Source: Escherichia virus TH21
Strand: one strand, 5' to 3'
Length of the DNA stretch: 52,087 bases
Sequence record: MT446395.1
Position numbers and translations under genes: made by a program. Below are positions 2,538 through 30,427 of this stretch, piece after piece. Each line of letters begins with the position of its first letter. Within the stretch, counting starts at the first letter, position 1. A model generated the notes under the pieces. It was not told the DNA's origin, did not search any database, and saw nothing but the letters and a program-made list of their open reading frames with translations.

Positions 2538-2604
2538 TTTGTATTCCTTAGTGAGTGTGTTTCGTTTCGATGGAGTAACTATAGCAAAGGATGATTACGG
2601 AGTC

Positions 2605-2621
2605 TTTAGCAAATCGTGCCA
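2605..2621 (-). promoter_or_regulatory. palindromic operator-like element (variant TGGCAC-N3-TTGCTAAA) of the repeated cassette, upstream of cor
   Basis: plus strand tttagcaaatcgtgcca; followed on minus strand by TATAGT and leader ATCGAAACGAAAC then AAGGAA-ATG. Confidence 0.5.
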
Positions 2622-2995
2622 TTTGATATACATGTAACCGATGTAACTCGGTGTATACAATCTCGTCCGCGGAAAATGATATACGCGCAGTTACGCCTAG
2701 TTACGCGATAGTTACATTAAAATATCTATATATATCAACCTTCTACTATAATTATTATTATTATATATATTACTGTGTATATCGTGTAACTACTTCTATA
2801 GAGTGTTCCGCTTATAAATTTCTAATATGGTTATTTATACAGTATCTAATCACGCATACACTAATGCACCCTCCGCGAAAAATGATATACACGATATACA
2901 CGCTGTTTACATCAAGCTATGGCTGGGCCGGATAGCCATTTTATGTAACTAATGCCATTACATACACGCTATTACAAATATCTACATGTAACTAC

Positions 2996-3023
2996 TTGAC
3001 TGACGCAACCAAGCGCGTATAGT
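2996..3023 (+). promoter_or_regulatory. sigma70-type promoter (TTGACT-N16-TATAGT) for the recombination operon
   Basis: hexamers read directly at 2996..3001 and 3018..3023; ATG at 3057. Confidence 0.55.
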
Positions 3024-3056
3024 TACCCACATCAACAACGAACGAGGATTAAAGAG

Positions 3057-4097
3057 ATGACCAAGCCAATGTTTCAATACTTCACGTCAGAAGAAATGAG
3101 CAACGACTTTTACCACAGCAAAGATGAGTGGACCGCCGAGTATGTATCAGGCTCATCACTCAGCAAGATCCACAGTACTTGCCCTGCGGCGTGGAAGTTT
3201 GAAATGAACTCGACGACTAAGGCGCTGGTCTTCGGTACGCAGTCGCATACCAATTTCGAGAGTAAGGCTCTTTTTGAACGTCAATATCGCCGCGCACCGA
3301 AAGAAAGCGAGATTGAAAACGTAATCACTAGCCAGGCGACATTGGCAACGAAATTAAAATCATTTGGCCTGACTGGTACAAGCGGCAAGCAATATCCAGA
3401 GCTAATCAAAATGATGGTTGATTGTGGAGAAGATCTCAACGTCATGTGGCTGATTAATATGATCGCACAGTGTCAGGCGTGGGCCGATGGTGTGGAACTG
3501 GTTAAAGCGGAAGACTACGACGCTTGCGTAAGTATGCGACAGGTTCTTGAAATGATTCCTGAACATAATGCTTGCATGAACAGCGAAACGGCATTCCGTG
3601 AGTATTCTTTGTTCGGCGTAATTTGTGGCGTTAAAGTTAAGGTGCGACTTGACCATGTTGATATTGTTAAAGATCCAGAAGCTATCCGACGCATGGGTTA
3701 CGATCCTGAGATTCACCCTGAAATTGTCGTCATCACTGATTACAAAACGACAATGAGCGCCAACCCGACCGAGTTCCCTCGCCTGGCGTTCAACCTTGGC
3801 TATTACCTCAAGATGGCATTGCAGCGTGACCTGTTCGTTAAGTGCTTTGAAGAAACGCGACCTGTGGTTGTGCGATTGCTGGCCCAGGAGAAGAAGGAGC
3901 CTTACTTGCCTATGGCGTACCGGATGAGTAGCGATCAGCTTAAGATTGGTCGAGCGCAGTACATGAGCGTGATTCACACCTTCTCAATGTGCGAAGCCAA
4001 TGACGTATGGCCTTCATACAATAATGGCGAGCCGGAAGTAGAACTGGATACGCCTGATTGGGTAATGAAACAGTTCAATCATATCCTAGAAGCATAG
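3057..4097 (+). CDS. recombination exonuclease, PD-(D/E)xK-type
   Basis: 346 aa; D...(I)TDYK nuclease-like motif; first gene of exo-annealase-SSB triad. Confidence 0.55.
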   Translation: MTKPMFQYFTSEEMSNDFYHSKDEWTAEYVSGSSLSKIHSTCPAAWKFEMNSTTKALVFGTQSHTNFESKALFERQYRRAPKESEIENVITSQATLATKLKSFGLTGTSGKQYPELIKMMVDCGEDLNVMWLINMIAQCQAWADGVELVKAEDYDACVSMRQVLEMIPEHNACMNSETAFREYSLFGVICGVKVKVRLDHVDIVKDPEAIRRMGYDPEIHPEIVVITDYKTTMSANPTEFPRLAFNLGYYLKMALQRDLFVKCFEETRPVVVRLLAQEKKEPYLPMAYRMSSDQLKIGRAQYMSVIHTFSMCEANDVWPSYNNGEPEVELDTPDWVMKQFNHILEA

Positions 4098-4870: not shown

Positions 4871-5314
4871 ATGCCACACGTAATCACTGGTCAGATCCGT
4901 AAATCACCATTCACTAAAGAAGGAAGCAACAACAACGGACGTTGGAAAATGTACGCCGTCGAACTTTCTGAGCGCATGAAGATTCGAAATCAGAATGGCG
5001 AGGATGAGACGGTTTATAGCAACTACCGCGCTACATTCTTCGCAAAAGAAAACGTTATGCAGTGGTATGATGAAGCGTTCCAGGAGGGCAAGGTTGTTTC
5101 AATTTCTGCCGATAACCTTCATCTATCGTCTCGACAGGGTAATGATGGCACTGTTTACGTCACCGCTGAAATGATCCGTCCTCAGTTACAATTCAGCCAG
5201 CGCGATCCAGCACAACAGCATGGTCAAGGTCAGCATCAACAACAGAAACAACAACCGCAGCAACCGCAGCAACCGCAGCAGCAAAGCCAATTCGACGACG
5301 ATATTCCTTTTTGA
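4871..5314 (+). CDS. ssb: single-stranded DNA-binding protein
   Basis: 147 aa from ATG 4871 (ORF track 4766 is an upstream extension); Q/P-rich linker and C-terminal DDDIPF tip. Confidence 0.8.
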   Translation: MPHVITGQIRKSPFTKEGSNNNGRWKMYAVELSERMKIRNQNGEDETVYSNYRATFFAKENVMQWYDEAFQEGKVVSISADNLHLSSRQGNDGTVYVTAEMIRPQLQFSQRDPAQQHGQGQHQQQKQQPQQPQQPQQQSQFDDDIPF

Positions 5315-8153: not shown

Positions 8154-9095
8154 TTATGAATACTTATCTATCAGATCCTGCGGCGTATATAACTTTCGCT
8201 CAAGGCCCATTTTGAAGTTTCCGCCGTTCGGCACTACAACTTTTAAATCACGTTCATCTGCCATGTAAAGCGTTCGCAAATCATCAGCTGGACACGCTAC
8301 GCGCAATTCACGATCGCCACGATACCGATAAGCAACAATCTCAAGATTCTCAGGGGAGAAAGTCACCCACACTTCCTGACTGGTCGCCATCTTCACACGA
8401 TAACCATCAATCAGATCGCTTGTCATATATATAGCTGCATCATCCTCGCCACTCCCCAGCTTAACCACTGAGCCGCGAGAATAATCACGCGCAAGGAAAG
8501 TGTATTCGCCATTATCATAAGCAAACATGACGTTGCACATATCCTCATCAATTCCGTCAGGGTGGACCATGTAGCACGGAAGTGCGTGTATTAGCTCCTC
8601 AGTGCCATTCTGGCGCATTTTTACGCCAACGTCATATGAATCTTCGGTTAAGCACTCATACACGCTTAAATCGGTGTTCTCGCGCTTTTCTGTGCGCTCC
8701 ATTACCGCTACGCACGACTCATGATCCGCCATCTTGCCAAGTCCTTTTTCCGGTACGCGCGACGCCCTGCGGTAAGCTTTAGCTTTGTAATCCTGAGGAA
8801 CTTTGCCAAGGAATCGACCAAGGATGTTAATCACTTCACTGTAAGGCTCACCAGTCAGCTTCATCATCCAGCCAACGCCCTTGTCGTTACCACAGCCGTT
8901 ACAGATTGCGCCGCCGTCACCAGGGGAATCCAATTCATCAGTCCACCGGAATCGGTCCTTGCCGCCACAGTAAGGGCAAGGCTGGTGCTTCTTATTGAAC
9001 ACGCCGGGCTGCAATCCACAAATGGATTGTAACGCCTCACGCCATAATCCTTTCATATATGGCAGGACTTCTTCTTTCTGGAACATCTCGTTCAC
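8154..9095 (-). CDS. DNA primase (zinc-ribbon type)
   Basis: 313 aa; CPYCGG...CNGCG zinc-binding motif; GTG start with GGAG 8 nt upstream. Confidence 0.6.
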   Translation of the reverse strand: MNEMFQKEEVLPYMKGLWREALQSICGLQPGVFNKKHQPCPYCGGKDRFRWTDELDSPGDGGAICNGCGNDKGVGWMMKLTGEPYSEVINILGRFLGKVPQDYKAKAYRRASRVPEKGLGKMADHESCVAVMERTEKRENTDLSVYECLTEDSYDVGVKMRQNGTEELIHALPCYMVHPDGIDEDMCNVMFAYDNGEYTFLARDYSRGSVVKLGSGEDDAAIYMTSDLIDGYRVKMATSQEVWVTFSPENLEIVAYRYRGDRELRVACPADDLRTLYMADERDLKVVVPNGGNFKMGLERKLYTPQDLIDKYS

Positions 9096-9147: not shown

Positions 9148-9627
9148 TTATTCTTTAGCTTTCCGTGCTGCTTCGTTTGCTGCTTTAATTTTTCGCCATG
9201 AGCGACATTCAGGCTTAGTGGCTAGTTCAGCCTCGGTGACGACGCGCAACATGTGACGCTTTTTGCAACGCAGCGTTAGCGGCTTACCGTTCCCGTCGAA
9301 TTGCAAGTCTGGTCGGCAGAATGTAGCGCGGAACCCTTCGCCAGTTCGCTTATATCGGTTGTGCGCCAGTTGAGCACCGCGCGCCGACATCATCCCACGC
9401 TTAAACCATTCCTCAACTGCCTGTCGAGTAACTTTTAATTGCTTCGCCATGTTCGCCTTGCTGCCGTAGAACTCAAACACAATATCAAGTCGCGCTCTTA
9501 ATCCGGCCTTTACTTCATCCTTGAGAACATAGTAACCTGACGGTCGTTTGCGCTGCTTCTTATCTTCCGTGCGGATAGTTCCGTTGTTACCGTTAAGAGT
9601 ACGCTTATCATTTGCATTCATTTTCAT
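9148..9627 (-). CDS. helix-turn-helix DNA-binding protein (putative transcriptional regulator)
   Basis: 159 aa, basic; HTH-like segment MAKQLKVTRQAVEEWFKRG. Confidence 0.4.
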   Translation of the reverse strand: MKMNANDKRTLNGNNGTIRTEDKKQRKRPSGYYVLKDEVKAGLRARLDIVFEFYGSKANMAKQLKVTRQAVEEWFKRGMMSARGAQLAHNRYKRTGEGFRATFCRPDLQFDGNGKPLTLRCKKRHMLRVVTEAELATKPECRSWRKIKAANEAARKAKE

Positions 9628-9635
9628 CACCTCAA

Positions 9636-9652
9636 TAGCACTTTTTGTTAAA
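9636..9652 (+). promoter_or_regulatory. cassette palindrome (TAGCAC-TTT-TTGTTAAA) upstream of helicase
   Basis: followed by TATTATAAC and leader ATCGAACGAAC; ATG 9715. Confidence 0.45.
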
Positions 9653-9714
9653 CATTGGTTTCGATGGTTGTTATTATAACGTCAATCGAACGAACATGAA
9701 AGGCATTTAATACT

Positions 9715-11817
9715 ATGGCTATGCGCATTAAATCCATTAAAAAACAGATAGAAGAACTTGGCCCGCAAAAGATTAAAGAGATTCAGGATAAATTCACATT
9801 TGGCGACATGGTTCCTTATGAGTATCAGTGCGTAATGTATGACGAGATCGGCAAGCGCATTGCTCGCTATAAGCATCCATTCATCGTTAAAGCGTCAGTG
9901 TCGGCAGGTAAGACGATCGGCTTTGCCATGATTGCATCGCGCGTAAAAGAAATGGGCTTGTCTATGATGATACTGGCGCGTCAGGGCGATATAGTCGCTC
10001 AGGATAGTGAGGAGATCTCAAACTTCGGCGTTCCTAACTCAGTTTACTGTGCTGGCCTGAACACAAAATCAGCTTACTTCCCAATCGTTGTCGGTTCGGA
10101 AGGATCGGTTGCAAACGGTCTGTTTAAGGCGCTTGGTGATTTTACACCTATGGTGCTGGGTATTGATGAATGTCACCAGGTGGATTGGGAAGACCTTGCC
10201 GCCGCCATCGACAACGAAGAGACGATTGAAATGATGCTCACTGAAAAGGATGAGCGTGTATTCGTTGACTACCCGAAAAACAGCGAAGGTTATGTCAATG
10301 GATACCTTGATGGCGTAGAGGTTGGCGTTCAGGTGATGGATAAGCAATTGCTGATAAGCCGGAAGACTGGCGAGCCTGTTCTTGGAACAAAACGAAGCCA
10401 GTACACGATCATAATCACTGAATTGATGCGCCGCTGCAAAGAGAAGAACGGGAAGGAATTACGCATCTTCGGCATGACTGGTTCGGAGTTCAGAGGAACA
10501 GCGCCAATTGTTGTCGATAACCCTAAGCTGCCAGGATTCTGGCGTGAGCAGGTTACTAACATCGACACCAGCTACCTGATTGAGTTCGGCTCTGTTGTTC
10601 CAACAATCTTCGGAAGTGTCGGTGACGCTGGATATGATCTGGATGAGTTTAAGGCGTCCAGTCAGGATGGAACGGCTGACTTTGGTCAGAAAGAAATGAA
10701 GGCGATGGAGAAGAAAATCCATGATAACGCCAGCATGACCAAGCGAATAATGGGAATGGTAGTCGAAGAGGCGAAGAAGCGAAACGGTGTACTGATTACG
10801 TGTTCAGGCCAGCGCCATTGCAAAGAGGCGGCGAGCTATCTGCCACCTGACGCTACCTATGAGATCATCACGGAGAAGACGAACACCAAAAAACGACAAG
10901 CGATACTGGAGGCGGCGAACCGTGGCGAGATCAAATACATATTCCAGGTGGTAGCGCTAACCACTGGCGTTAACGTTCCGTTTTGGGATTTTTCGGTAAT
11001 CCTGCGCAAGATCGGCTCACTTACCCTGCTAATACAGTTACTTGGTCGAGGTATGCGATTGCTTAAGCCGTGGCAAAAAGCGATGGGAATGGTGAAAGAA
11101 GATCACCTGGTATGGGATTTCGCTGGCACGATGGATGAGCTTGGTCAGCTTTACTTCGATCCGATTCTTGAAGAGGCTCAGTACCAGCGCCGCTTTGATG
11201 GTAAGAAAGAGCCGAAAAAATGTGAACTGTGCGGAACCGAGAACAGCTTTTACGCCCGCCGCTGCATTCACAGAGACGAAAACGGCAATCGTTGTGAGTA
11301 TTTCTGGAAATCTCGAATCTGTGAAGACCAGATTGATGATCGCACTGGTGAGGTGATTGTTAAGGGATGTGGCGCTGAGAATGACGTAGTGGCGAGAATA
11401 TGCCGTTGCTGTGATGTGAGCCTGAAAGATCCCAATGATAATCTGACTGGTAAGGCTTACACCAAAAACGACTGGTGCACAGTGAATAGTTTTGAAGTAA
11501 CGCTGACACGCAATCAGACTGGTATTCTTTATCGTTACGATCTGACAGATTCAGTTGGAGTTAATTTCATCGCGTATGAAAAGTTCTTCCCGCAGTCAAC
11601 GGCACAGGTATGTCACACGATATGGAAACAGAAAGGGGTGCTGCCTCATGTGCATGACAGTAAGATCGCAAAGTTAATGGCAGCTTACAGAAGTGCTAAA
11701 ATGATTTTAAACAACGCTCACCACATAGCGCATCCAGTGCGGGTAACTCACCGCAAGAATGCAAAAGGTGAGGACATCATTTCACGTAAGGATTTTGGAT
11801 TGGACGGTAACTTATGA
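9715..11817 (+). CDS. ATP-dependent helicase, superfamily 2
   Basis: 700 aa; Walker A SAGKT; DECH box (GIDECHQV). Confidence 0.75.
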   Translation: MAMRIKSIKKQIEELGPQKIKEIQDKFTFGDMVPYEYQCVMYDEIGKRIARYKHPFIVKASVSAGKTIGFAMIASRVKEMGLSMMILARQGDIVAQDSEEISNFGVPNSVYCAGLNTKSAYFPIVVGSEGSVANGLFKALGDFTPMVLGIDECHQVDWEDLAAAIDNEETIEMMLTEKDERVFVDYPKNSEGYVNGYLDGVEVGVQVMDKQLLISRKTGEPVLGTKRSQYTIIITELMRRCKEKNGKELRIFGMTGSEFRGTAPIVVDNPKLPGFWREQVTNIDTSYLIEFGSVVPTIFGSVGDAGYDLDEFKASSQDGTADFGQKEMKAMEKKIHDNASMTKRIMGMVVEEAKKRNGVLITCSGQRHCKEAASYLPPDATYEIITEKTNTKKRQAILEAANRGEIKYIFQVVALTTGVNVPFWDFSVILRKIGSLTLLIQLLGRGMRLLKPWQKAMGMVKEDHLVWDFAGTMDELGQLYFDPILEEAQYQRRFDGKKEPKKCELCGTENSFYARRCIHRDENGNRCEYFWKSRICEDQIDDRTGEVIVKGCGAENDVVARICRCCDVSLKDPNDNLTGKAYTKNDWCTVNSFEVTLTRNQTGILYRYDLTDSVGVNFIAYEKFFPQSTAQVCHTIWKQKGVLPHVHDSKIAKLMAAYRSAKMILNNAHHIAHPVRVTHRKNAKGEDIISRKDFGLDGNL

Positions 11818-17724: not shown

Positions 17725-19308
17725 TTACCCCAGCAGTCGCGGATTAATGTAAATTTTATCACCAATCAGGCACGTATAGTTTTTCTCATCCAGCATAGGG
17801 ATCAGATGGTCTTTGATGCGAGTCATTACACCAGCCTGGCCCTCGAATGGCTTAACCTTACGCGCCGCTTCATATAGGGATCGGACACCTACAACGCCTT
17901 TCCCGTTCTTGCCTTGCTTGATCAGGATGTCAATAAGCTTGTTCATCTCCGCATGGTCGCCAGCGTGACCAGCAGCGTTTGCAGATGACAGATAAGTTTT
18001 ACTCAGTTCCTGGAACATAATTACAGCTTCTTGCATTGTATCAAGCTCAATCTCTCTGGACTTCTGCGGACTTCCGCCATTGGGATTGAACCAGTTACGC
18101 ACAGTGTGAAGAACCGCCGCGATCCTGATGGCCTGCTTATCAAACTTACCAAGCGCGCCGCGAAGCATTGTGTGTGAATACTTCCCGCCGTCCGCAAGGT
18201 GAGGTTCCATATCCTGACGCGCACGGTTGAGATATTTCATCGCCGACGTGCTCACTGTCAGGTTGACTTCGTGTTCGCTCATGATCTCATGGACCAGACG
18301 GAAGTAGTCCGCCTTGAGTCCGCCATCAATCGGCTCATATGTTGATTCGCCTTTTTCGTCAACGAATACACGCTCGCCAAGGAATGACTTCTCACGCACA
18401 AGCAAGAAACGTTCTGACACACCGATACCACGCGCACCAGCATTCATGATCGCGTTGATTGTTTCATCCTGTGCAATTACAGAGATGCAACCCATAGCGA
18501 TAAAGCTCATGTTATTGTCTGCGTTCGCACGCGCGATAGATACGTTACCAGCATCCCATGCCTTAAGCACAAGTTCGCTGTTCGTTTTCTTTGAGCCGTC
18601 ACCATAGGTCATGCCTAACAGTGAGTTTACGCTCGTTGCTTCATCCGAGATCACAGAGAAGTTCCCCTGGCGGTTGTTGATTCGCGCCAGACCTTCCGGC
18701 GTGGTGTCGGATACGGGGAATACGATGTCACAAAGGCGTTCCAGTTTTTCTTCCAGTTCTTCTTTTTCCTCAAACAGTGCCGCCATGTCGGACGGTGATT
18801 TTTCCTGCTTCATCTCCTTGGATAGAGCAGATAGTTTAGCCATAATCTTCTTGCGGTCGCGCTTTCGGATCTCGTTGAGTCGTTCAGTCTCTGCGATCAT
18901 CGGGGCCAGCGAAAGTGAGTTAATGGCTGATTTACCTGTCGATGGTGGCTGACTGGTTACGACGTAAAGCGCGGTCGGCTGTTGTGTTCCGTGATACTCA
19001 ACCGTAAAGCGGCCCAGCATGGCGGCTGATATGCATCCGAGGAAATGCATGTAAGCGGACGACTCGGGGAACTGAACTGAACGAGCGGCATTGCTTGACA
19101 GCTTACCAACGACATCATAATCGTTACCAAGTGAGATAACCGGATATTTGTCACCGCCCGAGTCGATTTCTGTTGGTGCTTTCCAGAACGACTGGCTTTG
19201 CCTGTACCCGTTCGCATTGATGGCAACGCGCAGGGGCGGCAGGTTATCGGCGGCGGCCACAGCCATAACCTGATCGATAGACAATTTATCTTCGTTAAAA
19301 TCAAACAT
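17725..19308 (-). CDS. P-loop NTPase, possibly VirE/DUF3987-like primase-associated helicase
   Basis: 527 aa from ATG 19308 (AAGGAG 7 nt upstream); Walker A-like SQPPSTGKS; N- and C-terminal segments recur in 24573..25127. Confidence 0.45.
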   Translation of the reverse strand: MFDFNEDKLSIDQVMAVAAADNLPPLRVAINANGYRQSQSFWKAPTEIDSGGDKYPVISLGNDYDVVGKLSSNAARSVQFPESSAYMHFLGCISAAMLGRFTVEYHGTQQPTALYVVTSQPPSTGKSAINSLSLAPMIAETERLNEIRKRDRKKIMAKLSALSKEMKQEKSPSDMAALFEEKEELEEKLERLCDIVFPVSDTTPEGLARINNRQGNFSVISDEATSVNSLLGMTYGDGSKKTNSELVLKAWDAGNVSIARANADNNMSFIAMGCISVIAQDETINAIMNAGARGIGVSERFLLVREKSFLGERVFVDEKGESTYEPIDGGLKADYFRLVHEIMSEHEVNLTVSTSAMKYLNRARQDMEPHLADGGKYSHTMLRGALGKFDKQAIRIAAVLHTVRNWFNPNGGSPQKSREIELDTMQEAVIMFQELSKTYLSSANAAGHAGDHAEMNKLIDILIKQGKNGKGVVGVRSLYEAARKVKPFEGQAGVMTRIKDHLIPMLDEKNYTCLIGDKIYINPRLLG

Positions 19309-19378
19309 TAAAAAACTCCTTAGTTGGTGCGCTAATGTTAACGCACCTATGGTAAAACCGCTTGCCAAAAAATGCTAC

Positions 19379-21422: not shown

Positions 21423-21854
21423 TTACGGTTTTTTCGGTGGGCGCTGCTTGTGCACGTAAAACGGCGTCGGCGTAATGCAAGGCTGATAACCAGTCAGGAT
21501 ACGATTGCTTGCTTCCGTAGCGTGCGCAACTGCCTCAACCTGTTGAGATGTCGCCACCTGGCTACGGCGCAACAACCGACTTTTGCTCATCCGCTGGTTA
21601 GTGCCGCTTAACTTCATATACTGATAATCCAACGGCTCGAACGCGACACGCTTCTCCATGAACACCTTGCGGCTACTGGCAACGAATACCTTACTGCCTT
21701 TGCGTCCAGCAATGCTGCGAATGGAAGTGTACATTGACTCATGAATTTGAGCCTTGAAGCGCCAGGCTCCGTACGCCCAAATATACATCCGGCCTGATGG
21801 CGTGATGAATCGCGTGGTGCCATCCGTCGCCTTAAAGATGATGCCGTGTCTCAT
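21423..21854 (-). CDS. hypothetical basic protein
   Basis: 143 aa, Arg/Lys-rich. Confidence 0.45.
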   Translation of the reverse strand: MRHGIIFKATDGTTRFITPSGRMYIWAYGAWRFKAQIHESMYTSIRSIAGRKGSKVFVASSRKVFMEKRVAFEPLDYQYMKLSGTNQRMSKSRLLRRSQVATSQQVEAVAHATEASNRILTGYQPCITPTPFYVHKQRPPKKP

Positions 21855-21864
21855 TTGCCTTTCC

Positions 21865-22074
21865 TCAGATTAGTGAAATTTCGACGGTGACTTTCGCCTG
21901 ACCAATTACCCGCGCACCGCCATACAACAACGCGCATTCAATGATGTGCTCATCCATCGCGGCTGTTTGTGATGGCAGACCATCCAACAGGCGGAAGATT
22001 TCGGACCGTGAGTTGTCGCAACTGATCAGATACTCGTTGCCGCTACCGATAAACTGCACAATGTCAAACATCAT
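21865..22074 (-). CDS. hypothetical protein
   Basis: 69 aa from ATG 22074 (GGAG 8 nt upstream); ORF track start 22140 is TTG. Confidence 0.4.
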   Translation of the reverse strand: MMFDIVQFIGSGNEYLISCDNSRSEIFRLLDGLPSQTAAMDEHIIECALLYGGARVIGQAKVTVEISLI

Positions 22075-22250
22075 TTCTGTAGCTCCGTTTCGTAGTAGTC
22101 GTAGGTATTGAACTGATCTCTTGCGTTCATCTTCTCGCAAACCTGCTTTGCCATCTGCTCACTTAGGCACACGCAGTGCACTTGAGTGTCATATTCCGGT
22201 TCGCGTGGCTCAGCCATCACAACGTAGCAATGCATTTTAACAGTGGTCAT
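22071..22250 (-). CDS. hypothetical Cys/His-rich small protein (59 aa), possible zinc binder
   Basis: not in ORF track; HC..HCVC..C pattern; ATGA overlap downstream. Confidence 0.35.
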   Translation of the reverse strand: MTTVKMHCYVVMAEPREPEYDTQVHCVCLSEQMAKQVCEKMNARDQFNTYDYYETELQK

Positions 22251-22252
22251 AA

Positions 22253-22537
22253 TTATTTCTTCCCGTCGAATGTTAAATAGTTCACATGGAATGCAACGAT
22301 TCCATCGTGAGCGATTGTCGTGTGCGGACGAACGATGATGATCACCTTATCCGTTTTCTTGTCACGAAGCACCGCGTCGCCGTGCTCAAACATGTAAACA
22401 GTGCGATCAGCCATCTGCCTCACGCTCTCATTTCTGCAACCGTAGAATCGCTGAACCGCACGAATTACCGCATCATTCTCTTTGGCCTGAACCTCGACCT
22501 GCATACGGTAGGCCATTTGCTGAATATCGTTTTTCAT
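22253..22537 (-). CDS. hypothetical protein
   Basis: 94 aa; preceded by cassette leader. Confidence 0.45.
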   Translation of the reverse strand: MKNDIQQMAYRMQVEVQAKENDAVIRAVQRFYGCRNESVRQMADRTVYMFEHGDAVLRDKKTDKVIIIVRPHTTIAHDGIVAFHVNYLTFDGKK

Positions 22538-22592
22538 CTCTATATCCTTCGTTTCGATGGAGTGAATCTTAGCAAATCACTCCTGATTGGTA

Positions 22593-22609
22593 ATTAGCAA
22601 ATCGTGCTA
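22593..22609 (-). promoter_or_regulatory. cassette palindrome TAGCACGATTTGCTAAT
   Basis: followed by 7-bp-stem hairpin ggagtga..tcactcc and leader ATCGAAACGAAGG. Confidence 0.45.
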
Positions 22610-22610
22610 T

Positions 22611-22937
22611 TTATGCGATGTCGAACTCCGCTGCGTACGCTTCTTTGATACCCGCTTCACGCATGGTGCGCTTGCTGATTTTTCGCGGGTGACGGTACTG
22701 AGCGTTAGGCTTAATCCACCAGAAGCAAGCAGTTTCACGAACGATTTCATAAGCGCTGTAACGAGTGAAAATATCGCGTTCTGCGTCCGGCTGGGATACA
22801 CAGGTCAGGCTCTTAACTTCCGGCTTGATTTCTTCCCAAACGAATGAATCCATACCGTTAACCTTGCAAGCTACCATCACATATTCAACACCGTTTTCGA
22901 TTTTGATGATGTGGTTACCGCGATTTTCGTATTTCAT
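22611..22937 (-). CDS. hypothetical protein
   Basis: 108 aa. Confidence 0.45.
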   Translation of the reverse strand: MKYENRGNHIIKIENGVEYVMVACKVNGMDSFVWEEIKPEVKSLTCVSQPDAERDIFTRYSAYEIVRETACFWWIKPNAQYRHPRKISKRTMREAGIKEAYAAEFDIA

Positions 22938-22997
22938 TTGCTTGCTCTCTGTGTCTCGTTTCGATGAAGTAATAATACCCCATCGTGAGATCTGGCG

Positions 22998-23014
22998 TTT
23001 AGCAATTCGTGCTA
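22998..23014 (-). promoter_or_regulatory. cassette palindrome TAGCACGAATTGCTAAA
   Basis: followed by TATTAT and leader ATCGAAACGAGAC. Confidence 0.5.
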
Positions 23015-23016
23015 TT

Positions 23017-23214
23017 TCAGAATTTAACTTCCTCGACTACCTGGACCATCTCGTATCCAAGGCGGTAACTGTCACCAAGGATTAATCGGCCCATGAACTG
23101 ATCGTTCGTGAAGCTCTCCTTACCCATGGTCCGAAGCGATCCGTGATGGATGATAGTGTCGCCAACCTTCACGTCGTTCTTGTGCGTCAAAACAATTTTG
23201 TTATCCATTATCAA
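23017..23214 (-). CDS. hypothetical protein
   Basis: 65 aa. Confidence 0.4.
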   Translation of the reverse strand: MIMDNKIVLTHKNDVKVGDTIIHHGSLRTMGKESFTNDQFMGRLILGDSYRLGYEMVQVVEEVKF

Positions 23215-23404: not shown

Positions 23405-23468
23405 GATGATTTCCTTTAGTGCGTGTCGTTTCGATTAGGTAATAATAGCGAATCACTCCTGATCGGTC

Positions 23469-23485
23469 ATTAGCAAAAAGTGCTA
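23469..23485 (-). promoter_or_regulatory. cassette palindrome TAGCACTTTTTGCTAAT at the head of the minus-strand operon
   Basis: followed by TATTAT and the conserved leader. Confidence 0.45.
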
Positions 23486-23499
23486 TTCGTTCGATTTAT

Positions 23500-23625
23500 G
23501 GATTGTTGCAGCTATTGCAATGATTCACTTCACTATTGCACATATAGCAATATTGCATCGTTTGCAATGATGTTTTCGATTGTTGCGAATTGAGCAATGA
23601 TTCATTGATGGGTGGAATGATGGGG
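23500..23625. repeat. iteron-like cluster of TTGCAATGAT / TTGCA repeats
   Basis: TTGCAATGAT at 23515 and 23562, GCAATGAT at 23594, GGAATGATG at 23614; inverted repeat TATTGC-N7-GCAATA near 23535. Confidence 0.45.
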
Positions 23626-23681
23626 TGAGATCTGATCCCCGATCGCCTGGTAGGATTTTCCCGCCACACGTTTCATCTATT

Positions 23682-23830
23682 TACACGTAACCGAAGTAGC
23701 ACGGTGTAAGCCACACCCATATCGTTACGCGGGTTACGCGCAGCTACGCCCTGACTTACGCCATAAGTCCTTAATATATATATATATCTTCTTTCTATTA
23801 TTATTATTATTATTAATATTATTGTATGTA
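23682..23830. repeat. AT-rich repeat segment paralogous to 2629..2790, with (AT)7 and (TTA)6 microsatellites
   Basis: tacacgtaaccgaagtagcacggtgta vs tacatgtaaccgatgtaactcggtgta; cgcgcagYtacgcc shared; microsatellites in both copies. Confidence 0.55.
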
Positions 23831-24033
23831 AGTCGTGTAACTGGGGTGCTGGAGTTATCTATATGTTTTTTCCTATCAGGGTATATATTTGCTATTTATG
23901 GACGCATTTCGCCAGTACGGGGCCATGACATCAATTTGCCTCGTTACAGCCACGACACCAAACTACATTGAGCTATAGCTGGGCTGTGATACCTTTTCGC
24001 GTAACCACCCCCGAAAGTTACCAAAAATTACAC

Positions 24034-24062
24034 TTGACTACATGTGTAAGTCGGGATACGAT
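24034..24062 (+). promoter_or_regulatory. sigma70-type promoter (TTGACT-N17-TACGAT) for the plus-strand accessory operon
   Basis: hexamers read directly; ATG at 24094 after GAGAGGAG. Confidence 0.5.
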
Positions 24063-24093
24063 TAGCTCAACTTAAACGAGAGGAGTTATAAAG

Positions 24094-24573
24094 ATGAAAG
24101 AGCAAGTAACACTAGGGCAGGTGATTCGTGAGATGGCAAAGGCAGCACTCAAGTCCGAGGATAAGCAATTCAGCGTGCCACTAAGTAAGATTGCAAGCAT
24201 TATCGGAGTCGATGGCGATAACATTCCAAAGCTAAAGAGTTCATACATCTACAACACGACAGCCCGCATGACTGAGCTAAGGGATGTTGGATTGAAAGCG
24301 ACTCACTCCTATGACGACGACGAGGGTGATAGCGAGTTCGGTGAATCAACCCTGGCAGGTGATAGAAGACTGGTTATCAAGCTGGTACCTGGCACGGCGA
24401 ACATTGGAATCAGAAAGAAGACCAATAACGCGATAAAGGAAGAGGCAATCACCGAGTTCAAGGCGAGAATTTCAAAGGTTATGCCAGACATTTCAGAGTA
24501 TGAAGGAGAGGCGCTTGCCGCTGCAATGAAGGCAATTAAAGATTACCGCTCAATCATTGAGGAGATTAAATAA
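24094..24573 (+). CDS. hypothetical protein, first gene of plus-strand accessory operon
   Basis: 159 aa; strong RBS. Confidence 0.5.
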   Translation: MKEQVTLGQVIREMAKAALKSEDKQFSVPLSKIASIIGVDGDNIPKLKSSYIYNTTARMTELRDVGLKATHSYDDDEGDSEFGESTLAGDRRLVIKLVPGTANIGIRKKTNNAIKEEAITEFKARISKVMPDISEYEGEALAAAMKAIKDYRSIIEEIK

Positions 24574-25127
24574 TGTTTGATTTCAACGAAGATAAGTTAA
24601 CTGATGACCAAGTGATGGAAGTCGCCAGGCAAGATAACCTTCTGCCATTGCGCGTGGCAATCAACGCAAACGGATACCGTCAAGCTTTCAAGTTCTGGTG
24701 CAGCGCAGAAGAGATGCTGCGCGTCAAACTGAGCCACAAACAAAGCGTCGTGGTTAAAAGGATTAGCCACCAGGGCCGCAACGGAAAGGGAGTGGTTGGC
24801 ATTAGATCTCTATACGAGGCAATCCGAAAGGTCCAGCCATTCGTCGGGCGCGAAGGGATTATGCATGACCTGACAAATAACATCATCCCAGCACTACAGG
24901 AGGCAGGAATTGTTTGCCTCATTGGCGATAAGATTTATGTGCATCCGGCCCTGGTGGGAATGGATGAACGAGACGTGTACACCTGGTGCAGTCAGCACCG
25001 ATCCGACGCGCGACGTTCTCACTACGTGCCACCGCAGACAACAATCCATGGCTATGATGCCGATGAGGTGGAGAAGGCCATCCAGTTCTACCGGAAAGCG
25101 AAATCTCTCCTGAACGGTGAATGCTAA
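24573..25127 (+). CDS. domain-deleted paralogue of the 17725..19308 P-loop protein (N- and C-terminal segments only)
   Basis: 184 aa; MFDFNEDKL..PLRVAINANGYRQ and GKGVVG.RSLYEA..K..PF...CLIGDKIY match both ends of the 527-aa protein; no Walker A. Confidence 0.5.
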   Translation: MFDFNEDKLTDDQVMEVARQDNLLPLRVAINANGYRQAFKFWCSAEEMLRVKLSHKQSVVVKRISHQGRNGKGVVGIRSLYEAIRKVQPFVGREGIMHDLTNNIIPALQEAGIVCLIGDKIYVHPALVGMDERDVYTWCSQHRSDARRSHYVPPQTTIHGYDADEVEKAIQFYRKAKSLLNGEC

Positions 25128-25412: not shown

Positions 25413-25619
25413 ATGGAAACTGTACGTATTGACGATGTTCACTTTGACCAAGCTGAGGTCAGTGTCACGATGAGATCAGTTCGCGGCAATGTTGTCAACC
25501 TGGACTTCGATCCTGACGGTTACGCAGATTGCCAAACACTGATGCATTACTCACCTGACGCGGCTCGCAAATTAGCGGCGGCACTTATTCTGGCAGCGGA
25601 AGAGGCAGAAAAGCAATGA
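25413..25619 (+). CDS. small acidic protein, paralogue family member 1
   Basis: 68 aa; shares V.I.D..AEV....Y.PD.ARKLAAAL..AAEEAE pattern with 25616, 26394 and (more distantly) 26621. Confidence 0.5.
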   Translation: METVRIDDVHFDQAEVSVTMRSVRGNVVNLDFDPDGYADCQTLMHYSPDAARKLAAALILAAEEAEKQ

Positions 25620-25834
25620 TTGATATTCGAGTTAATTCAGCCTGGGATCAGGAGACGGAAATCTCAGTAATCAATGTTCCGTTTGGAAAGATGCGTAAGC
25701 GCGTGCACCTGGACCTTTCGCCGGATTCGCAAGTGGATGGCGCTGGCATGACATACACCGCAGAGCAGGCGCGCGAACTTGCTGCGGCGCTAATTAAGGC
25801 AGCTGAGGAAGTGGAGGCGGAAGTCGATGAGTAA
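25616..25834 (+). CDS. small acidic protein, paralogue family member 2
   Basis: 72 aa; ATGA overlap with member 1. Confidence 0.5.
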   Translation: MIDIRVNSAWDQETEISVINVPFGKMRKRVHLDLSPDSQVDGAGMTYTAEQARELAAALIKAAEEVEAEVDE

Positions 25835-26027
25835 ATTCAGGATCGCATTGATTGAAACAACAACCGCCTTCGGTCATCCGGTCAAGTGGTATGCCGTCCA
25901 AAAACGGGTGGCTTTGTTCTGGTGGGCTACAGTGGCCCATGCAAGCCAGCTTTCCCAGGCTCGCTACTGGCTGCATAAGTCCGGCGCACCGCATCGCAAA
26001 GAGAAAGTAGTGAGGATTATCGAATGA
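25827..26027 (+). CDS. hypothetical protein
   Basis: 66 aa, Trp-rich basic. Confidence 0.4.
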   Translation: MSKFRIALIETTTAFGHPVKWYAVQKRVALFWWATVAHASQLSQARYWLHKSGAPHRKEKVVRIIE

Positions 26028-26314
26028 AGAAACTAATTTTATTAGCAGCACTGGCTCTGGCTGGATGTGATTTCGGAAGCACCCGTGTAGATTCAGAGGC
26101 TCGGCAGAAGATGCCAGTGAATGTCAACGATCGCGTCCAGGTTGTGAAGATTCAGGAGTTCAGGGATGAACTGGCATATGAGAACGTCAGAGCGATATAC
26201 GTCATCACCGATAAGGACACTGGTCAGGAATACATCGGATTAAGCGGTGTCGGGATCGTGGAAGTTGGTCGCCATGGTTGCGGCAAGGGATGCTCCAGAG
26301 AAGATGAACGATAG
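26024..26314 (+). CDS. small lipoprotein
   Basis: 96 aa; signal peptide with lipobox LAGC. Confidence 0.55.
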   Translation: MKKLILLAALALAGCDFGSTRVDSEARQKMPVNVNDRVQVVKIQEFRDELAYENVRAIYVITDKDTGQEYIGLSGVGIVEVGRHGCGKGCSREDER

Positions 26315-29733: not shown

Positions 29734-30354
29734 ATGTCAAAGATTATCATTCTCAACGGTCCAGCTTCGGTTGGTAAAGACACGATTGGCAACGCCCTAG
29801 CAGCAGATTACAACTGCATCCCGACCAGCTTCAAGCGTCCGATGTTTGAGATTGCAGCATCCATCCTTGGGGCCAGGGCTTTTTCAAAGTTCATCACAGC
29901 ATACGACGACCGCGATCAGAAAGAGATGCCTCAGAGCTTCCTTGGTGGCAAGACATGCCGCGAGTTCATGATCTGGATTAGCGAGTCTGTGGTAAAGCCG
30001 CTATTTGGCAACCAGCAATTCGGAAAGCTGATGAGCGAACATATCAAGCTGTGTGACGAAGGATTCTGTTTTGTGTGTACTGATGGCGGCTTCCCTGATG
30101 AAGTGATCAGGCTCGTTGAAGATGGTCACGATGTTACCCTGGTCCGCTTGTTCATGGATGGCAAGACTTTCGCGGGAGATAGCCGTGATTACATCCGCAT
30201 CAAGCAATCGCACTTCCCTGATTACAAGAAATATAACGAGCATGATGTGCATCTGGTAAATGGTGATGTTGATGATGGCGTCCTTAAAGTAGTTCGCGCT
30301 TGCTTGGTTAGTCCTTCAATGGATGATGATTGGGCAGACGATATTCCTTGGTAA
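29734..30354 (+). CDS. deoxynucleoside monophosphate kinase with acidic SSB-tip-like C-terminus
   Basis: 206 aa; P-loop GPASVGKDT; C-terminus DDDWADDIPW. Confidence 0.6.
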   Translation: MSKIIILNGPASVGKDTIGNALAADYNCIPTSFKRPMFEIAASILGARAFSKFITAYDDRDQKEMPQSFLGGKTCREFMIWISESVVKPLFGNQQFGKLMSEHIKLCDEGFCFVCTDGGFPDEVIRLVEDGHDVTLVRLFMDGKTFAGDSRDYIRIKQSHFPDYKKYNEHDVHLVNGDVDDGVLKVVRACLVSPSMDDDWADDIPW

Positions 30355-30355
30355 A

Positions 30356-30372
30356 TAGCACGAATTGCTAAA
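30356..30372 (+). promoter_or_regulatory. cassette palindrome TAGCACGAATTGCTAAA
   Basis: followed by terminator-like hairpin cccgc-tacg-gcggg plus TTTTGTT and TATAGT. Confidence 0.5.
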
Positions 30373-30427
30373 CCCGCTACGGCGGGTTTTGTTATAGTTA
30401 GTTCACACCAAACGAGAGGAAAGCAAA

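What the first reader, a model, noticed from the sequence alone, without database searches (positions are those of the whole stretch)
2622..3056. Two paralogous AT-rich control regions at both strand-switch points
The 435-bp region between cor (minus) and the exonuclease operon (plus) and the region 23640..24093 share clear homology (tacaYgtaaccgaWgta..cggtgta, cgcgcagYtacgcc, agctatRgctgggc). Both contain (AT)n and (TTA)n microsatellites and many GTAAC/GTTAC repeats, and both end in a sigma70-type promoter (TTGACT at 2996 and 24034) driving a plus-strand operon, with a palindrome cassette driving the divergent minus-strand gene. Duplicated bidirectional control regions suggest shared regulation or origin-like function, and the microsatellites could vary in length.
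Basis: seen in the sequence. Interest (0 to 1): 0.55.

Follow-up and report, generated by a model that had tools for sequence, protein, structure and literature searches.

The report
Paired origin-like control modules, T1-like phage
A T1-family coliphage carries two old, strongly conserved copies of a non-coding module (short phased repeats, an extremely AT-rich block, an early promoter) that look like the family's long-sought replication origins built into its early control regions, though this has not been tested experimentally.

Summary
Window 2615-2989 and 23669-24045 align collinearly (62% over 390 columns). The score lies 29 SD above dinucleotide shuffles, and three sub-blocks are each significant on their own.

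The window is a complete T1-like (Drexlerviridae) genome. Both copies occur in every relative examined. A-type copies cluster together, B-type copies cluster together, and A-B identity stays near 60-65%, so the duplication is ancient.

Each copy has 3-4 TTACGC repeats about 10 bp apart. These abut the two most AT-rich 60-mers of the genome, which holds in all seven genomes tested. Each copy also has a cluster of GTAAC boxes and a TTGACT promoter. In Klebsiella phage RAD2 both copies carry a different box (GTAAGAT), so one sequence-specific factor probably reads both.

The (TA)n and (TTA)n tracts are almost length-invariant, so they are not hypervariable. Copy A is 80-83% identical across subfamilies, while its flanking genes are 57-77% identical.

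My best reading (about 0.45) is paired iteron plus unwinding-element origin modules, comparable to P4 ori/crr. They sit inside the early promoter regions. The likeliest reader is the winged-helix C-terminus of the phage helicase. The main rival is a purely transcriptional operator array.

The B-only repeats at 23496-23625 mark the packaging end. The "palindrome cassette" is the known dispersed 21-nt promoter-like element.

The parts
2578..2626 (-). Leftward dispersed promoter-type element in A. It consists of the 21-nt T1-family box (ATGGCACGATTTGCTAA, 2606-2622) and a TATAGT -10 hexamer 17 nt after the TAAAGA end of the box. It is not part of the A/B-specific core.
   Evidence: Matches the consensus aaATAGCACnnnTTGnTAAAA reported for TLS, T1 and Rtp. 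There are 17 co-oriented copies in the window, each with a -10-like hexamer at a fixed distance. blastn finds about 12 dispersed copies.
2629..2655 (+). Box cluster 1 of A: TACATGTAACCGATGTAACTCGGTGTA. Two direct GTAAC boxes sit inside a TACA(Y)/GTGTA inverted repeat.
   Evidence: Aligned with B 23682-23708 and conserved in all A and B copies.
2666..2687 (+). 22-nt direct repeat, left copy (TCCGCGGAAAATGATATACGCG). The right copy is at 2872-2893. Together they bracket the iterons and the AT block.
   Evidence: the repeat finder family D3, 91% identity, 206-bp spacing. Also present in CJ19-type and Rtp-type B copies.
2689..2716 (+). Iteron array of A: AGTTACGC, AGTTACGC and AGTTACAT, spaced 10 and 11 bp apart.
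   Evidence: Tandem Repeats Finder gives period 10 and 2.5 copies. The RYGTAACY scan places them on the minus strand. Conserved in all A copies.
2713..2775 (.). AT-rich block of A (88% AT) with (TA)4-5 and (ATT)4. This is the candidate DNA unwinding element.
   Evidence: Second most AT-rich 60-mer of the window. Nearly invariant in sequence and length across genera.
2776..2790 (+). TGTATATCGTGTAAC box directly right of the AT block. It is also the 5' arm (2775-2788) of a perfect 14-bp inverted repeat whose other arm is at 2888-2901.
   Evidence: The same box lies at 23827-23841 in B. T1 has it in both regions (GTTGTATATCGTGTAAC and GTTGTATAGCGTGTC). Inverted repeat I4.
2872..2902 (+). Right copy of the 22-nt direct repeat, GATATACAC x2, and the 3' arm of the 14-bp inverted repeat.
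2906..2950 (+). Most conserved shared block: TTTACATCAAGCTATGGCTGGGC...GCCATTTTATGTAAC. It contains an AGCTATRGCT near-palindrome and a short GC hairpin, bracketed by inverted GTAAC-type boxes.
   Evidence: AGCTAT[AG]GCT occurs only twice in 52 kb, once in A and once in B. Conserved in all 19 aligned copies. Hairpin hit. Folds are not consistent across copies.
2996..3023 (+). Rightward sigma70-type promoter of A (TTGACT-16-TATAGT) ahead of exonuclease VIII (3057-4097), Erf and SSB.
   Evidence: 10 of 12 consensus matches. Gene identities come from PHROGs. A GTAAC box abuts the -35 hexamer.
23442..23488 (-). Leftward dispersed promoter-type element in B: the 21-nt box ATAGCACTTTTTGCTAA (23470-23486) plus a TATTAT -10 hexamer.
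23496..23625 (.). B-specific repeat cluster (GATTGTTGCA, TTGCAATGATT). It is the likely pac / terminase recognition region and is absent from A.
   Evidence: Family D1. It appears as a 130-bp insertion relative to A. The ESCO41 and XT34 records begin or end at about 23505/6. T1 record base 1 (GATT|GTTGCA) aligns to the same GATTGTTGC repeat cluster.
23682..23708 (+). Box cluster 1 of B: TACACGTAACCGAAGTAGCACGGTGTA.
23724..23761 (+). Iteron array of B: GTTACGC, GTTACGC, GCTACGC and CTTACGC, spaced 9, 10 and 12 bp apart.
23770..23832 (.). AT-rich block of B (92% AT) with (TA)6 and (TAT)9. This is the candidate DNA unwinding element.
   Evidence: Most AT-rich 60-mer of the window. Tandem Repeats Finder reports (TAT)9.3. 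Nearly invariant among B copies.
23827..23841 (+). TGTAAGTCGTGTAAC box right of the AT block.
23962..24006 (+). Conserved shared block in B: ACATTGAGCTATAGCTGGGC...GCGTAACC.
24034..24062 (+). Rightward sigma70-type promoter of B (TTGACT-17-TACGAT). The conserved CTACATGTGTAAG box lies inside its spacer.
   Evidence: and the alignment.
24094..24573 (+). First gene of the B operon, a 159-aa DUF7174 protein. It travels with the B-core type as a swappable cassette. It is a candidate winged-helix DNA binder (inferred).
24573..25127 (+). Second gene of the B operon, a 184-aa "mini-helicase". It keeps the N- and C-terminal domains of the 547-aa helicase and lacks the ATPase core. It is a candidate competitor or regulator at the same DNA sites (inferred).
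17725..19368 (-). 547-aa helicase of the DUF3987 family (T1 gp9 homologue). Its C-terminal domain of about 100 aa is the best candidate reader of the boxes (inferred).
   Evidence: Pfam and PHROGs. Against RAD2, where the box differs, the C-terminal domain is 46% identical and the core 73%. Against phages with the same boxes the figures are 92-100% and 94-100%.

Best explanation
Regions A (core 2626-2990) and B (core 23669-24045) are two ancient paralogous copies of a composite cis-acting module. They are not just AT-rich spacers.

Each copy holds 3-4 direct TTACGC/GTAAC-type iterons spaced about one helical turn apart. These abut a block of about 60 bp that is 88-92% AT. Further GTAAC boxes in inverted orientation flank that block. 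An outward sigma70 early promoter lies 230-250 bp further on.

The most likely function is replication-origin-type DNA. A phage-encoded sequence-specific protein would bind the boxes in both copies, and the adjacent AT block would melt. The best candidate binder is the winged-helix C-terminal domain of the DUF3987 helicase. The helicase-derived 184-aa protein and/or the DUF7174 protein could act as modulators. The two copies would act either as two origins or as an origin plus a distant cis enhancer. The same boxes next to or inside the early promoters would couple early transcription to this binding.

Shown here: the homology, the anatomy, the conservation, the co-evolution of boxes in both copies, and the predicted winged-helix folds of the candidate proteins (the helicase C-terminal fold is inferred from its paralogue). 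Inferred: who binds, DNA melting, and replication initiation.
For: 1. Real, ordered homology.

2. Both copies exist in CJ19, BEK3, EC3a, Rtp, DTL and ZL19. Bit scores are 300-680 for A-A, 190-770 for most B-B pairs and only 60-150 for A-B. The duplication therefore predates these genera and both copies have been kept.

3. Strong constraint. Between subfamilies the A core is 80-83% identical, while exo and erf are 57-60% and the lipoprotein gene 71-77%. The A core matches the best-conserved gene, the helicase, at 82-83%. It is found at 80% identity or more in most of 135 phage records.

4. Iterons are in helical phase. RYGTAACY occurs 8 times in A and 4 times in B, and at most once in any other 450-bp window.

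5. The two AT blocks are the two most AT-rich 60-mers in the window and in CJ19, BEK3, EC3a, Rtp, T1 and RAD2. Their tract lengths are conserved.

6. In Webervirus RAD2 the two regions are again paralogous (85% over 131 nt), but both carry a different box, GTAAGAT (12 of 16 genomic copies). The boxes therefore co-evolve in both copies. The helicase C-terminal domain is disproportionately diverged there, at 46% against 73% for the core.

8. Design precedents. E. coli PICI origins have two iteron sets flanking an AT-rich region (PMC6092414). P4 alpha has a winged helix C-terminal to its helicase (PMC2777425).

9. No origin has been identified for T1-like phages (PMC11447400, PMC7718038).
Against: - There is no experimental link to replication.
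- A box lies inside the spacer of the B promoter and next to the -35 of the A promoter. This is typical of operators, so a purely transcriptional role fits much of the anatomy.
- GTAAC-box clustering is strong in A but weaker in B. B does not rank in the top four GTAAC clusters of Rtp or T1.
- The winged-helix fold is generic. Foldseek gave no significant PDB hit, and the P4 alpha origin-binding domain was not recovered.
- The mini-helicase is missing in T1 and decayed in Rtp, so it cannot be essential.
- There are no DnaA boxes. The IHF consensus is present only in A copies of relatives.
- The co-variation argument rests on very few lineages.
Confidence: 0.45

Rival explanations
1. The regions are purely transcriptional control regions. 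The repeated boxes would be operators for a phage regulator, for example the Cro-like HTH protein at 9148-9630 or DUF7174. That regulator would switch the two host-RNAP early promoter regions on or off together. The AT block would be a bending, UP-like or nucleoid-protein site.
For: - Both regions carry a rightward TTGACT promoter and a leftward 21-nt-type promoter.
- A conserved box lies in the spacer of the B promoter and abuts the -35 of the A promoter.
- TLS has only three intergenic sigma70 promoters, so such regions are probably the early start points.
- The HTH regulator is as conserved as the A core, at 89-93%.
- One source annotates a DUF7174 homologue as a "predicted transcriptional regulator".
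- A perfect IHF core sits in the AT block of 8 of 10 A copies.
Against: - The iterons and AT block lie 230-280 bp upstream of the rightward promoters, and 130-320 bp from the leftward ones. That is too far for UP-element or classical operator action.
- The other 15 promoters of the 21-nt class have no such block.
- In RAD2 the A-equivalent is not a divergent region.
- Promoter-like hits are not enriched over shuffles.
- The extreme, length-invariant conservation of a 60-bp AT tract is unusual for a promoter accessory.
- This explanation is not exclusive of the origin model.
Confidence: 0.3
2. The shared core is a packaging signal. It would be a second pac or terminase-binding site, or an enhancer of packaging initiation.
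For: Region B holds the conventional genome end. T1 base 1 and the ESCO41 and XT34 record ends map to about 23505. The SU57 paper places pac in this untranslated region.
Against: The repeats at the ends (23496-23625) are confined to B and are an insertion relative to A. The shared core begins about 45 bp further right. No record end convention maps to the core of A other than in arbitrarily opened assemblies. The small terminase genes lie kilobases away.
Confidence: 0.05
3. The conserved core encodes something: a small protein (ORF 2827-2952) or a structured non-coding RNA.
For: An ATG-initiated ORF of 32-43 codons is retained in most A copies. A 14-bp perfect inverted repeat and a hairpin followed by a T-run are present. 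The alifold energy on the minus strand lies 8.7 SD below column shuffles.
Against: - Variable columns are 12, 15 and 17 of about 31 at codon positions 1, 2 and 3, so there is no third-position bias.
- ZL19 has a frameshift, the stop position moves, there is no Shine-Dalgarno sequence, and B has no equivalent ORF.
- Rfam has no hit in the whole window.
- There are no compensatory changes, and the alifold signal comes from the one inverted repeat.
- The T-run becomes an A-run in Braunvirinae.
Confidence: 0.05
4. The similarity is only compositional, or the tracts are hypervariable microsatellites (contingency loci).
For: Both regions are AT-rich and contain (TA)n and (TTA)n.
Against: Dinucleotide-preserving shuffles are exceeded by 29 SD, and GC-containing sub-blocks are significant on their own. 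Tract lengths are almost invariant across genera.
Confidence: 0.01

Closest known systems
Satellite phage P4 ori / crr with the alpha primase-helicase
   Same: - Two separated cis regions carry the same short iterons.
- The phage encodes a P4-family-type primase. T1 gp24 is annotated as similar to the CP-933 alpha protein and the phiR73 primase, and the window primase has the Zn-ribbon "primase-helicase" domain.
- It also encodes a helicase whose C-terminus is predicted to be a winged helix.
[quoted passage not shown]
- That alpha binds type I iterons in both ori and crr is my recollection of Ziegelin et al. 1993/1995. I did not check it here.
   Different: - Primase and helicase are separate genes here.
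- The helicase is DUF3987, not shown to be the P4 alpha family.
- The P4 origin-binding domain (1KA8) was not recovered by fold search.
- The two modules are whole-region paralogues of about 375 bp, each with its own AT block and promoter, lying 21 kb apart.
- No functional data exist.
Iteron origins of PICIs / SaPIs and iteron plasmids (RepE, Pi, RepA)
   Same: Short repeats flank an AT-rich putative melting site (PMC6092414). A box overlaps the promoter of the adjacent gene, as in Rep autoregulation. DUF7174, encoded next to B, gives weak structural hits to RepE, Pi and RepA winged-helix domains.
Bacillus phage SPP1 oriL / oriR (two related origins in a pac-type siphovirus)
   Same: A headful-packaging siphovirus with two similar initiator-binding regions, each with an AT-rich segment, tens of kilobases apart. 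This is from memory (Pedre et al. 1994; Missich et al. 1997) and was not checked here.
   Different: The replication proteins are unrelated (G38P with a DnaB-type helicase). There is no sequence similarity. In SPP1 oriL lies inside the initiator gene.
T1-family dispersed 21-nt repeat (aaATAGCACnnnTTGnTAAAA)
   Same: One copy forms the left edge of each region and drives or marks leftward transcription.
   Different: It is a 17-copy dispersed element and is unrelated to the A/B-specific core. It explains only the similarity between 2554-2624 and 23418-23487.

Membership tests
Iteron-type replication origin (iterons + DNA unwinding element) | Three or more direct repeats of a short motif spaced about one helical turn apart | tested here: met
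   A has 3 repeats at 10 and 11 bp. B has 4 repeats at 9, 10 and 12 bp.
Iteron-type replication origin (iterons + DNA unwinding element) | An adjacent, exceptionally AT-rich segment | tested here: met
   The blocks are the two most AT-rich 60-mers in the window and in six related genomes.
Iteron-type replication origin (iterons + DNA unwinding element) | Specific binding of the repeats by a cognate initiator | not testable with these tools
   Support is indirect only. The boxes co-evolve in both copies (RAD2), the helicase C-terminus is disproportionately diverged there, and winged-helix folds are predicted.
Iteron-type replication origin (iterons + DNA unwinding element) | Replication initiates there, or the fragment confers replication | not testable with these tools
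   No experimental origin mapping for T1-like phages was found in the held literature.
Iteron-type replication origin (iterons + DNA unwinding element) | Host-factor sites (DnaA boxes, IHF) common in plasmid iteron origins | tested here: not met
   No TTWTNCACA in any copy. The IHF core is present in 8 of 10 A copies but not in the window's A, and at the equivalent AT-block position in no B copy.
P4-type ori/crr two-site system | The same iteron in two separated cis regions | tested here: met
   GTAAC/TTACGC boxes occur in both regions. The lineage-specific GTAAGAT box occurs in both regions of RAD2.
P4-type ori/crr two-site system | Initiator helicase with a C-terminal winged-helix origin-binding domain homologous to P4 alpha | tested here: inconclusive
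Sigma70 bidirectional promoter / operator region | -35 and -10 hexamers with correct spacing, facing the flanking genes | tested here: met
   TTGACT-16-TATAGT at 2996 and TTGACT-17-TACGAT at 24034. Leftward elements have TATAGT and TATTAT. The counts are not above shuffles.
Sigma70 bidirectional promoter / operator region | Mapped transcription starts and regulator binding | not testable with these tools
   No transcriptome data for this phage group were found.
pac site / terminase recognition region | Coincidence with virion DNA ends and terminase-type repeats | tested here: not met
   This holds for the B-only segment 23496-23625. It does not hold for the A/B shared core, and A lacks those repeats.
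Hypervariable microsatellite (contingency locus) | Repeat number varies among close relatives | tested here: not met
   (TA)n and (TTA)n lengths are the same in nearly all of 19 copies from seven or more genera. There is one single-unit loss, in CJ19 A.
Structured RNA family (Rfam) or small coding gene | A covariance-model hit or compensatory pairs; codon-position bias | tested here: not met
   No Rfam hit. No compensatory changes. Variable columns are 12/15/17 by codon position, with a frameshift in ZL19.
T1-family 21-nt dispersed repeat | Match to aaATAGCACnnnTTGnTAAAA, about 76 nt upstream of a start codon, co-oriented with the gene | tested here: met
   2606-2622 (-) and 23470-23486 (-) are 2 of 17 copies. 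This applies only to the left edges of the regions.

The most novel reading that the evidence does not exclude
These two modules are the long-missing replication origins of the T1 family (Drexlerviridae). They would form a two-site system in which a split primase/helicase pair reads lineage-specific pentamer-to-heptamer boxes on both sides of a melt-prone AT block, at two loci about 21 kb apart. A helicase-derived protein that keeps only the winged-helix and N-terminal domains, encoded next to one site, would tune initiation. Initiation would be hard-wired to the only strong host-RNAP early promoters.
Probability: 0.35. Interest if true: 0.65.

Novelty: new member of a known kind. Interest (0 to 1): 0.5.

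Why it matters
T1 is one of the seven classical T phages and a notorious laboratory and fermenter contaminant. The genome papers I could read state that no origin or iterons could be found, or guess one from GC skew.

This work gives a conserved, duplicated, precisely delimited non-coding module with defined boxes. It also gives a natural specificity variant (GTAAC in coliphages, GTAAGAT in Klebsiella Webervirus) and three candidate binding proteins. Together these turn the question [quoted passage not shown] into a small set of direct experiments.

The work also shows that the eye-catching microsatellites are constrained sequence and not variable tracts.

If the modules prove to be operators only, the result is still useful. 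It defines the shared early regulatory sites of a large phage family that is used in therapy collections.

Tried and rejected
- **Chance or compositional similarity.** Rejected by shuffles.
- **Recent duplication or gene conversion.** Rejected. A-B similarity within a genome is no higher than between genomes.
- **Microsatellite variability.** Rejected.
- **Small ORF 2827-2952.** Rejected.
- **Structured RNA.** No Rfam hit. alifold shows only a DNA-type inverted repeat without covariation (the first attempt, timed out). The hairpin near 2919-2939 is not consistently foldable across copies.
- **pac function for the shared core.** Rejected; it applies only to the B-specific repeats.
- **DnaA boxes.** None found. 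IHF is not shared between A and B.
- **GC skew.** Uninformative, because it follows transcription.
- **Relatives outside phages.** No match in plasmids or E. coli genomes.
- **IMG/VR pattern scans.** The 14-mer returned mostly chance hits. The 18-mer returned only 6 loci, including the public isolates ESCO41, EC3a and DTL.
- **Sequence searches of the PDB.** Nothing for the helicase or the mini-protein. NCBIfam gave nothing useful. Foldseek against the PDB was not significant.
- **Literature.** The Rtp genome paper could not be retrieved. The T1 genome paper (Roberts et al. 2004) was not looked for in the library, so an earlier description of these regions there cannot be excluded. Two searches failed on term length. 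The transcriptome searches were unproductive.
Full report
**What the window is.** The 52,087-bp window is a complete, circularly permuted genome of a T1-like siphovirus (Drexlerviridae). It is closest to the Nouzillyvirus phages CJ19, 50EP and P817.

Region A (2538-3056) lies between a 76-aa phage lipoprotein gene on the minus strand and the exonuclease VIII - Erf - SSB operon on the plus strand. The lipoprotein gene occupies the position of T1 cor.

Region B (23405-24093) lies between the leftward block of small early genes and a rightward operon. That operon begins with a DUF7174 protein and a 184-aa protein, and leads on to the terminase and structural genes.

A third -/+ strand switch exists at 9631-9714, between the HTH regulator and a large helicase. 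It is only 84 bp long and holds nothing but a copy of the dispersed 21-nt element.

**Checking the observation.** blastn with permissive scoring gives a single collinear alignment of 2615-2989 with 23669-24045. It shows 62% identity over 390 columns with E about 1e-23, and no third copy exists in the window.

The local alignment score is 64, against 12.8 +/- 1.8 for 500 dinucleotide-preserving shuffles (z = 29). The left part, the AT block and the right part each stand out on their own (z = 11.1, 10.3, 8.7).

The two AT blocks are the two most AT-rich 60-mers in the genome, at 92% and 88% against 77% for the next. The two regions are also the densest GTAAC/GTTAC clusters. The octamer RYGTAACY occurs 8 times in A and 4 times in B, and never more than once in any other 450-bp window. 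That motif was defined after looking at A, so the Poisson values are only indicative.

**Three separate things are superimposed.** First, the left edge of each region (2578-2626 and 23442-23488, minus strand) is a copy of a dispersed unit of about 70 bp that blastn finds at a dozen other places. It contains the 21-nt repeat aaATAGCACnnnTTGnTAAAA that Kropinski and colleagues described for TLS, T1, Rtp and Rogue1 and listed as an open question (PMC11447400). The window has 17 copies, all co-oriented with local transcription.

Second, B alone carries a 130-bp cluster of GATTGTTGCA / TTGCAATGATT repeats (23496-23625). Base 1 of the T1 record lies in the equivalent repeat cluster, at GATT|GTTGCA. 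The ESCO41 and XT34 records begin or end at window position about 23505/6, and several other records open nearby. This is the conventional genome end and pac region (see also PMC7718038). It is not part of the A/B homology.

Third, the shared core itself is present only at these two loci.

**Anatomy of the shared core.** From left to right:
- Two GTAAC boxes inside a TACAC/GTGTA inverted repeat (2629-2655; 23682-23708).
- An array of TTACGC-type direct repeats about one helical turn apart. A has three (2689-2716) and B has four (23724-23761).
- The AT block with (TA)n and (TTA)n (2713-2775; 23770-23832).
- A TGTAnnTCGTGTAAC box (2776-2790; 23827-23841).
- About 100 bp that differ between A and B.
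- The best-conserved block, ACATYRAGCTATRGCTGGGC...GTAAC (2906-2950; 23962-24006).
- A TTGACT promoter (2996-3023; 24034-24062).

The boxes left of the AT block read on the minus strand, and the box to its right reads on the plus strand. They are therefore arranged divergently around the AT block.

In A the core is also bracketed by a 22-nt direct repeat (2666 and 2872), and it contains a perfect 14-bp inverted repeat (2775-2788 / 2888-2901).

The two TTGACT hexamers are not in aligned columns. In B the conserved CTACATGTGTAAG box lies inside the promoter spacer. In A the equivalent box lies just upstream of the -35 hexamer.

**Comparative evidence.** The A core matches 135 phage records, most at 80% identity or more. 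The B-type core of the window is found in about 20 records.

I examined the whole genomes of CJ19, BEK3, CEB_EC3a and Rtp, and paired loci from DTL and ZL19. All of them contain both copies. In an all-against-all comparison the A copies cluster (300-680 bits) and the B copies cluster (mostly 190-770 bits). A-B scores are uniformly low (60-150 bits), both within and between genomes. The duplication therefore predates the split of Nouzillyvirus, Braunvirinae and Rogunavirinae, and there is no sign of concerted evolution.

Between the window and the Braunvirinae the A core is 80-83% identical. By comparison, exo and erf are 57-60%, the membrane-protein gene 59-65% and the lipoprotein gene 71-77%. 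Only the helicase gene matches it, at 82-83%.

The AT blocks, including the "microsatellites", are almost identical in sequence and length across all these genera. This rules out slippage-driven variability and points to strong constraint.

T1 itself (Tunavirinae) has no alignable core, but it shows a similar architecture at the same two places. These are cor/exo (29851-30377) and the genome ends. Both have a TA-rich block (76% identity over 91 nt between the two) followed by TGTATAkCGTGT(AAC). TTACGC repeats 10 bp apart precede the block at the genome ends, and GTAAC boxes precede it at cor/exo. In T1 too, these blocks are the two most AT-rich 60-mers.

**The Webervirus test.** Klebsiella phage RAD2 has a 495-bp region upstream of exo, here downstream of the primase gene on the same strand, so it is not a strand switch. 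It also has a 664-bp region at the early divergence point. These two regions are paralogous to each other (85.5% over 131 nt, E = 2e-33) and again hold the two most AT-rich 60-mers of the genome.

Their repeated box is GTAAGAT rather than GTAAC. Of 16 genomic copies, 9 lie in the A-equivalent and 3 in the B-equivalent. The box has therefore changed in both copies together, which is what one expects if a single sequence-specific protein reads both.

**Candidate readers.** The phage encodes the following:
- a primase (8154-9095);
- a Cro-like HTH regulator (9148-9630);
- a large SNF2-type helicase (9715-11817);
- a 547-aa helicase of the DUF3987 family (17725-19368).

The second gene to the right of B (24573-25127, 184 aa) turned out to be an internal-deletion paralogue of the 547-aa helicase. 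Its residues 1-48 match helicase 21-68 at 71% identity, and residues 67-129 match helicase 485-547 at 60%. The family is widespread, with 329 homologues. It is present in CJ19, BEK3 and EC3a, decayed in Rtp and absent in T1.

Compared with the window, the helicase C-terminal domain is 92-100% identical in phages that share the GTAAC boxes. It is only 46% identical in RAD2, where the ATPase core is 73% identical. For T1 the figures are 53% and 61%. The HTH regulator is 62% (RAD2) and 53% (T1). This favours the helicase C-terminus as the specificity determinant, but it rests on very few lineages.

The window's B core and DUF7174 gene are BEK3-like (86% and 79% identity), whereas the rest of the genome is CJ19-like. 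The junction lies near 23674. The core and its first gene therefore move as a cassette.

**Interpretation.** The combination of phased iterons, an adjacent extreme AT block and inverted boxes around it is the standard design of initiator-dependent origins. The E. coli PICI origins are described in just these terms (PMC6092414). A helicase carrying a C-terminal winged helix is the P4 alpha arrangement (PMC2777425). From memory, P4 also needs two separated iteron regions, ori and crr, and SPP1 has two related origins, oriL and oriR.

I therefore rank an origin-type function first (about 0.45). The two copies would act as two origins or as an origin plus a cis enhancer. Box occupancy would also affect the adjacent early promoters.

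A purely transcriptional operator function is the main rival (about 0.3) and is not mutually exclusive. Arguments for it are the position of a box in the B promoter spacer and the fact that these are probably the few strong host-RNAP promoters of the phage. Arguments against it are the 230-280 bp distance of the iterons and AT block from the rightward promoters, and the absence of such blocks at the other 15 promoters of the 21-nt class.

Packaging, RNA and coding explanations were tested and found weak.

**Prior knowledge and novelty.** I found no description of the paralogy in the accessible literature. The TLS paper states that no iterons were found anywhere in that genome. The SU57 paper reports that no origin was found. 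Sfin-1 relies on a GC-skew guess. The Rtp genome paper could not be retrieved and the T1 genome paper was not looked for in the library, so prior mention there cannot be excluded.

If the favoured reading holds, this is a new member of a known kind (iteron/DUE origins, in a two-site arrangement). It is not a new mechanism. Its value is that it makes an old open question about a classical phage family directly testable.

Noticed in passing
17 sites, e.g. 4094+, 9635+, 12226+, 13540+, 19814-, 21422-, 22610-, 23015-, 25339+, 26311+, 27127+, 27384+, 28631+, 30355+, 30984+ (plus 2622- and 23486-): The "unexplained" T1-family 21-nt repeat looks like a promoter class. In all 17 copies the 3' end of the box (TAAACA/TAAAGA) sits 17 nt upstream of a good -10 hexamer (TATAAT, TATAGT or TATTAT), often preceded by TGn. 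A conserved leader (CATCGAAACGAA) and an RBS follow. The invariant ATAGCAC lies at about -50, where an UP element or activator would bind (literature).
   Followed up: partly
24573-25127 (+) versus 17725-19368 (-): A 184-aa protein is an internal-deletion paralogue of the 547-aa DUF3987 helicase. It keeps the N-terminal roughly 48 aa and the C-terminal winged-helix region and has no ATPase. The family is widespread (329 homologues) but is lost in Rtp and absent in T1.
   Followed up: partly
about 23674 to about 24573: There is a mosaic junction. The window's B core and DUF7174 gene are Braunvirinae-like (86% and 79% identity to BEK3). The flanking pac repeats and most of the genome are CJ19-like (90-98%). 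CJ19 and Rtp carry a different B-core type with a DUF7174 only 33-35% identical. The two therefore behave as a swappable core-plus-gene cassette.
   Followed up: partly
23496-23625: B-specific GATTGTTGCA / TTGCAATGATT repeats coincide with base 1 of the T1 record and with the ends of the ESCO41 and XT34 records. This is the probable pac cleavage and terminase recognition region.
   Followed up: partly
2626-2990 versus its flanks: The conservation pattern is inverted. Against other subfamilies the A core (80-83%) is far better conserved than its neighbouring genes (57-77%). Against the closest relative, CJ19, it is less conserved (87%) than its neighbours (94-98%). This suggests that the core has its own recombination history.
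   Followed up: no
2731-2743 and the equivalent position in relatives: A perfect IHF core consensus (TATCAACCTTTTA) sits in the AT block of 8 of 10 A copies. In the window and in 50EP it is broken by a single T-to-C change (TATCAACCTTCTA). It is absent at this position from all B copies.
   Followed up: partly
L003 (BEK3) 21742-23148; L004 (EC3a) 25604-26251: In BEK3 and EC3a (Braunvirinae), extra leftward genes are inserted between the lipoprotein gene and the A core; one of them is a Roi/anti-repressor-like DNA-binding protein. In several Braunvirinae (Rtp, BEK3, EC3a) an annotated ORF (rtp46-like) starts inside the conserved right part of the A core. That start is probably mis-annotated.
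   Followed up: no
39059-39152: Tandem 9-nt and 36-nt repeats encode a collagen-like G-X-Y stretch (AAAGGTGACACTGGTCCGCAAGGTCCAAAAGGCGAC) within the structural gene block.
   Followed up: no
5231-5284: [quoted passage not shown]
   Followed up: no
L137 (phage tonn) 690-1191: The Tempevirinae phage tonn also has a region of about 500 bp upstream of exo, with an 88% AT block and a TTGACT promoter. Its boxes differ again (CTGAGAAC-like). It shares a CGTAAATTTnGCGCAAAATTTA motif with Webervirus RAD2 just before the AT block.
   Followed up: no
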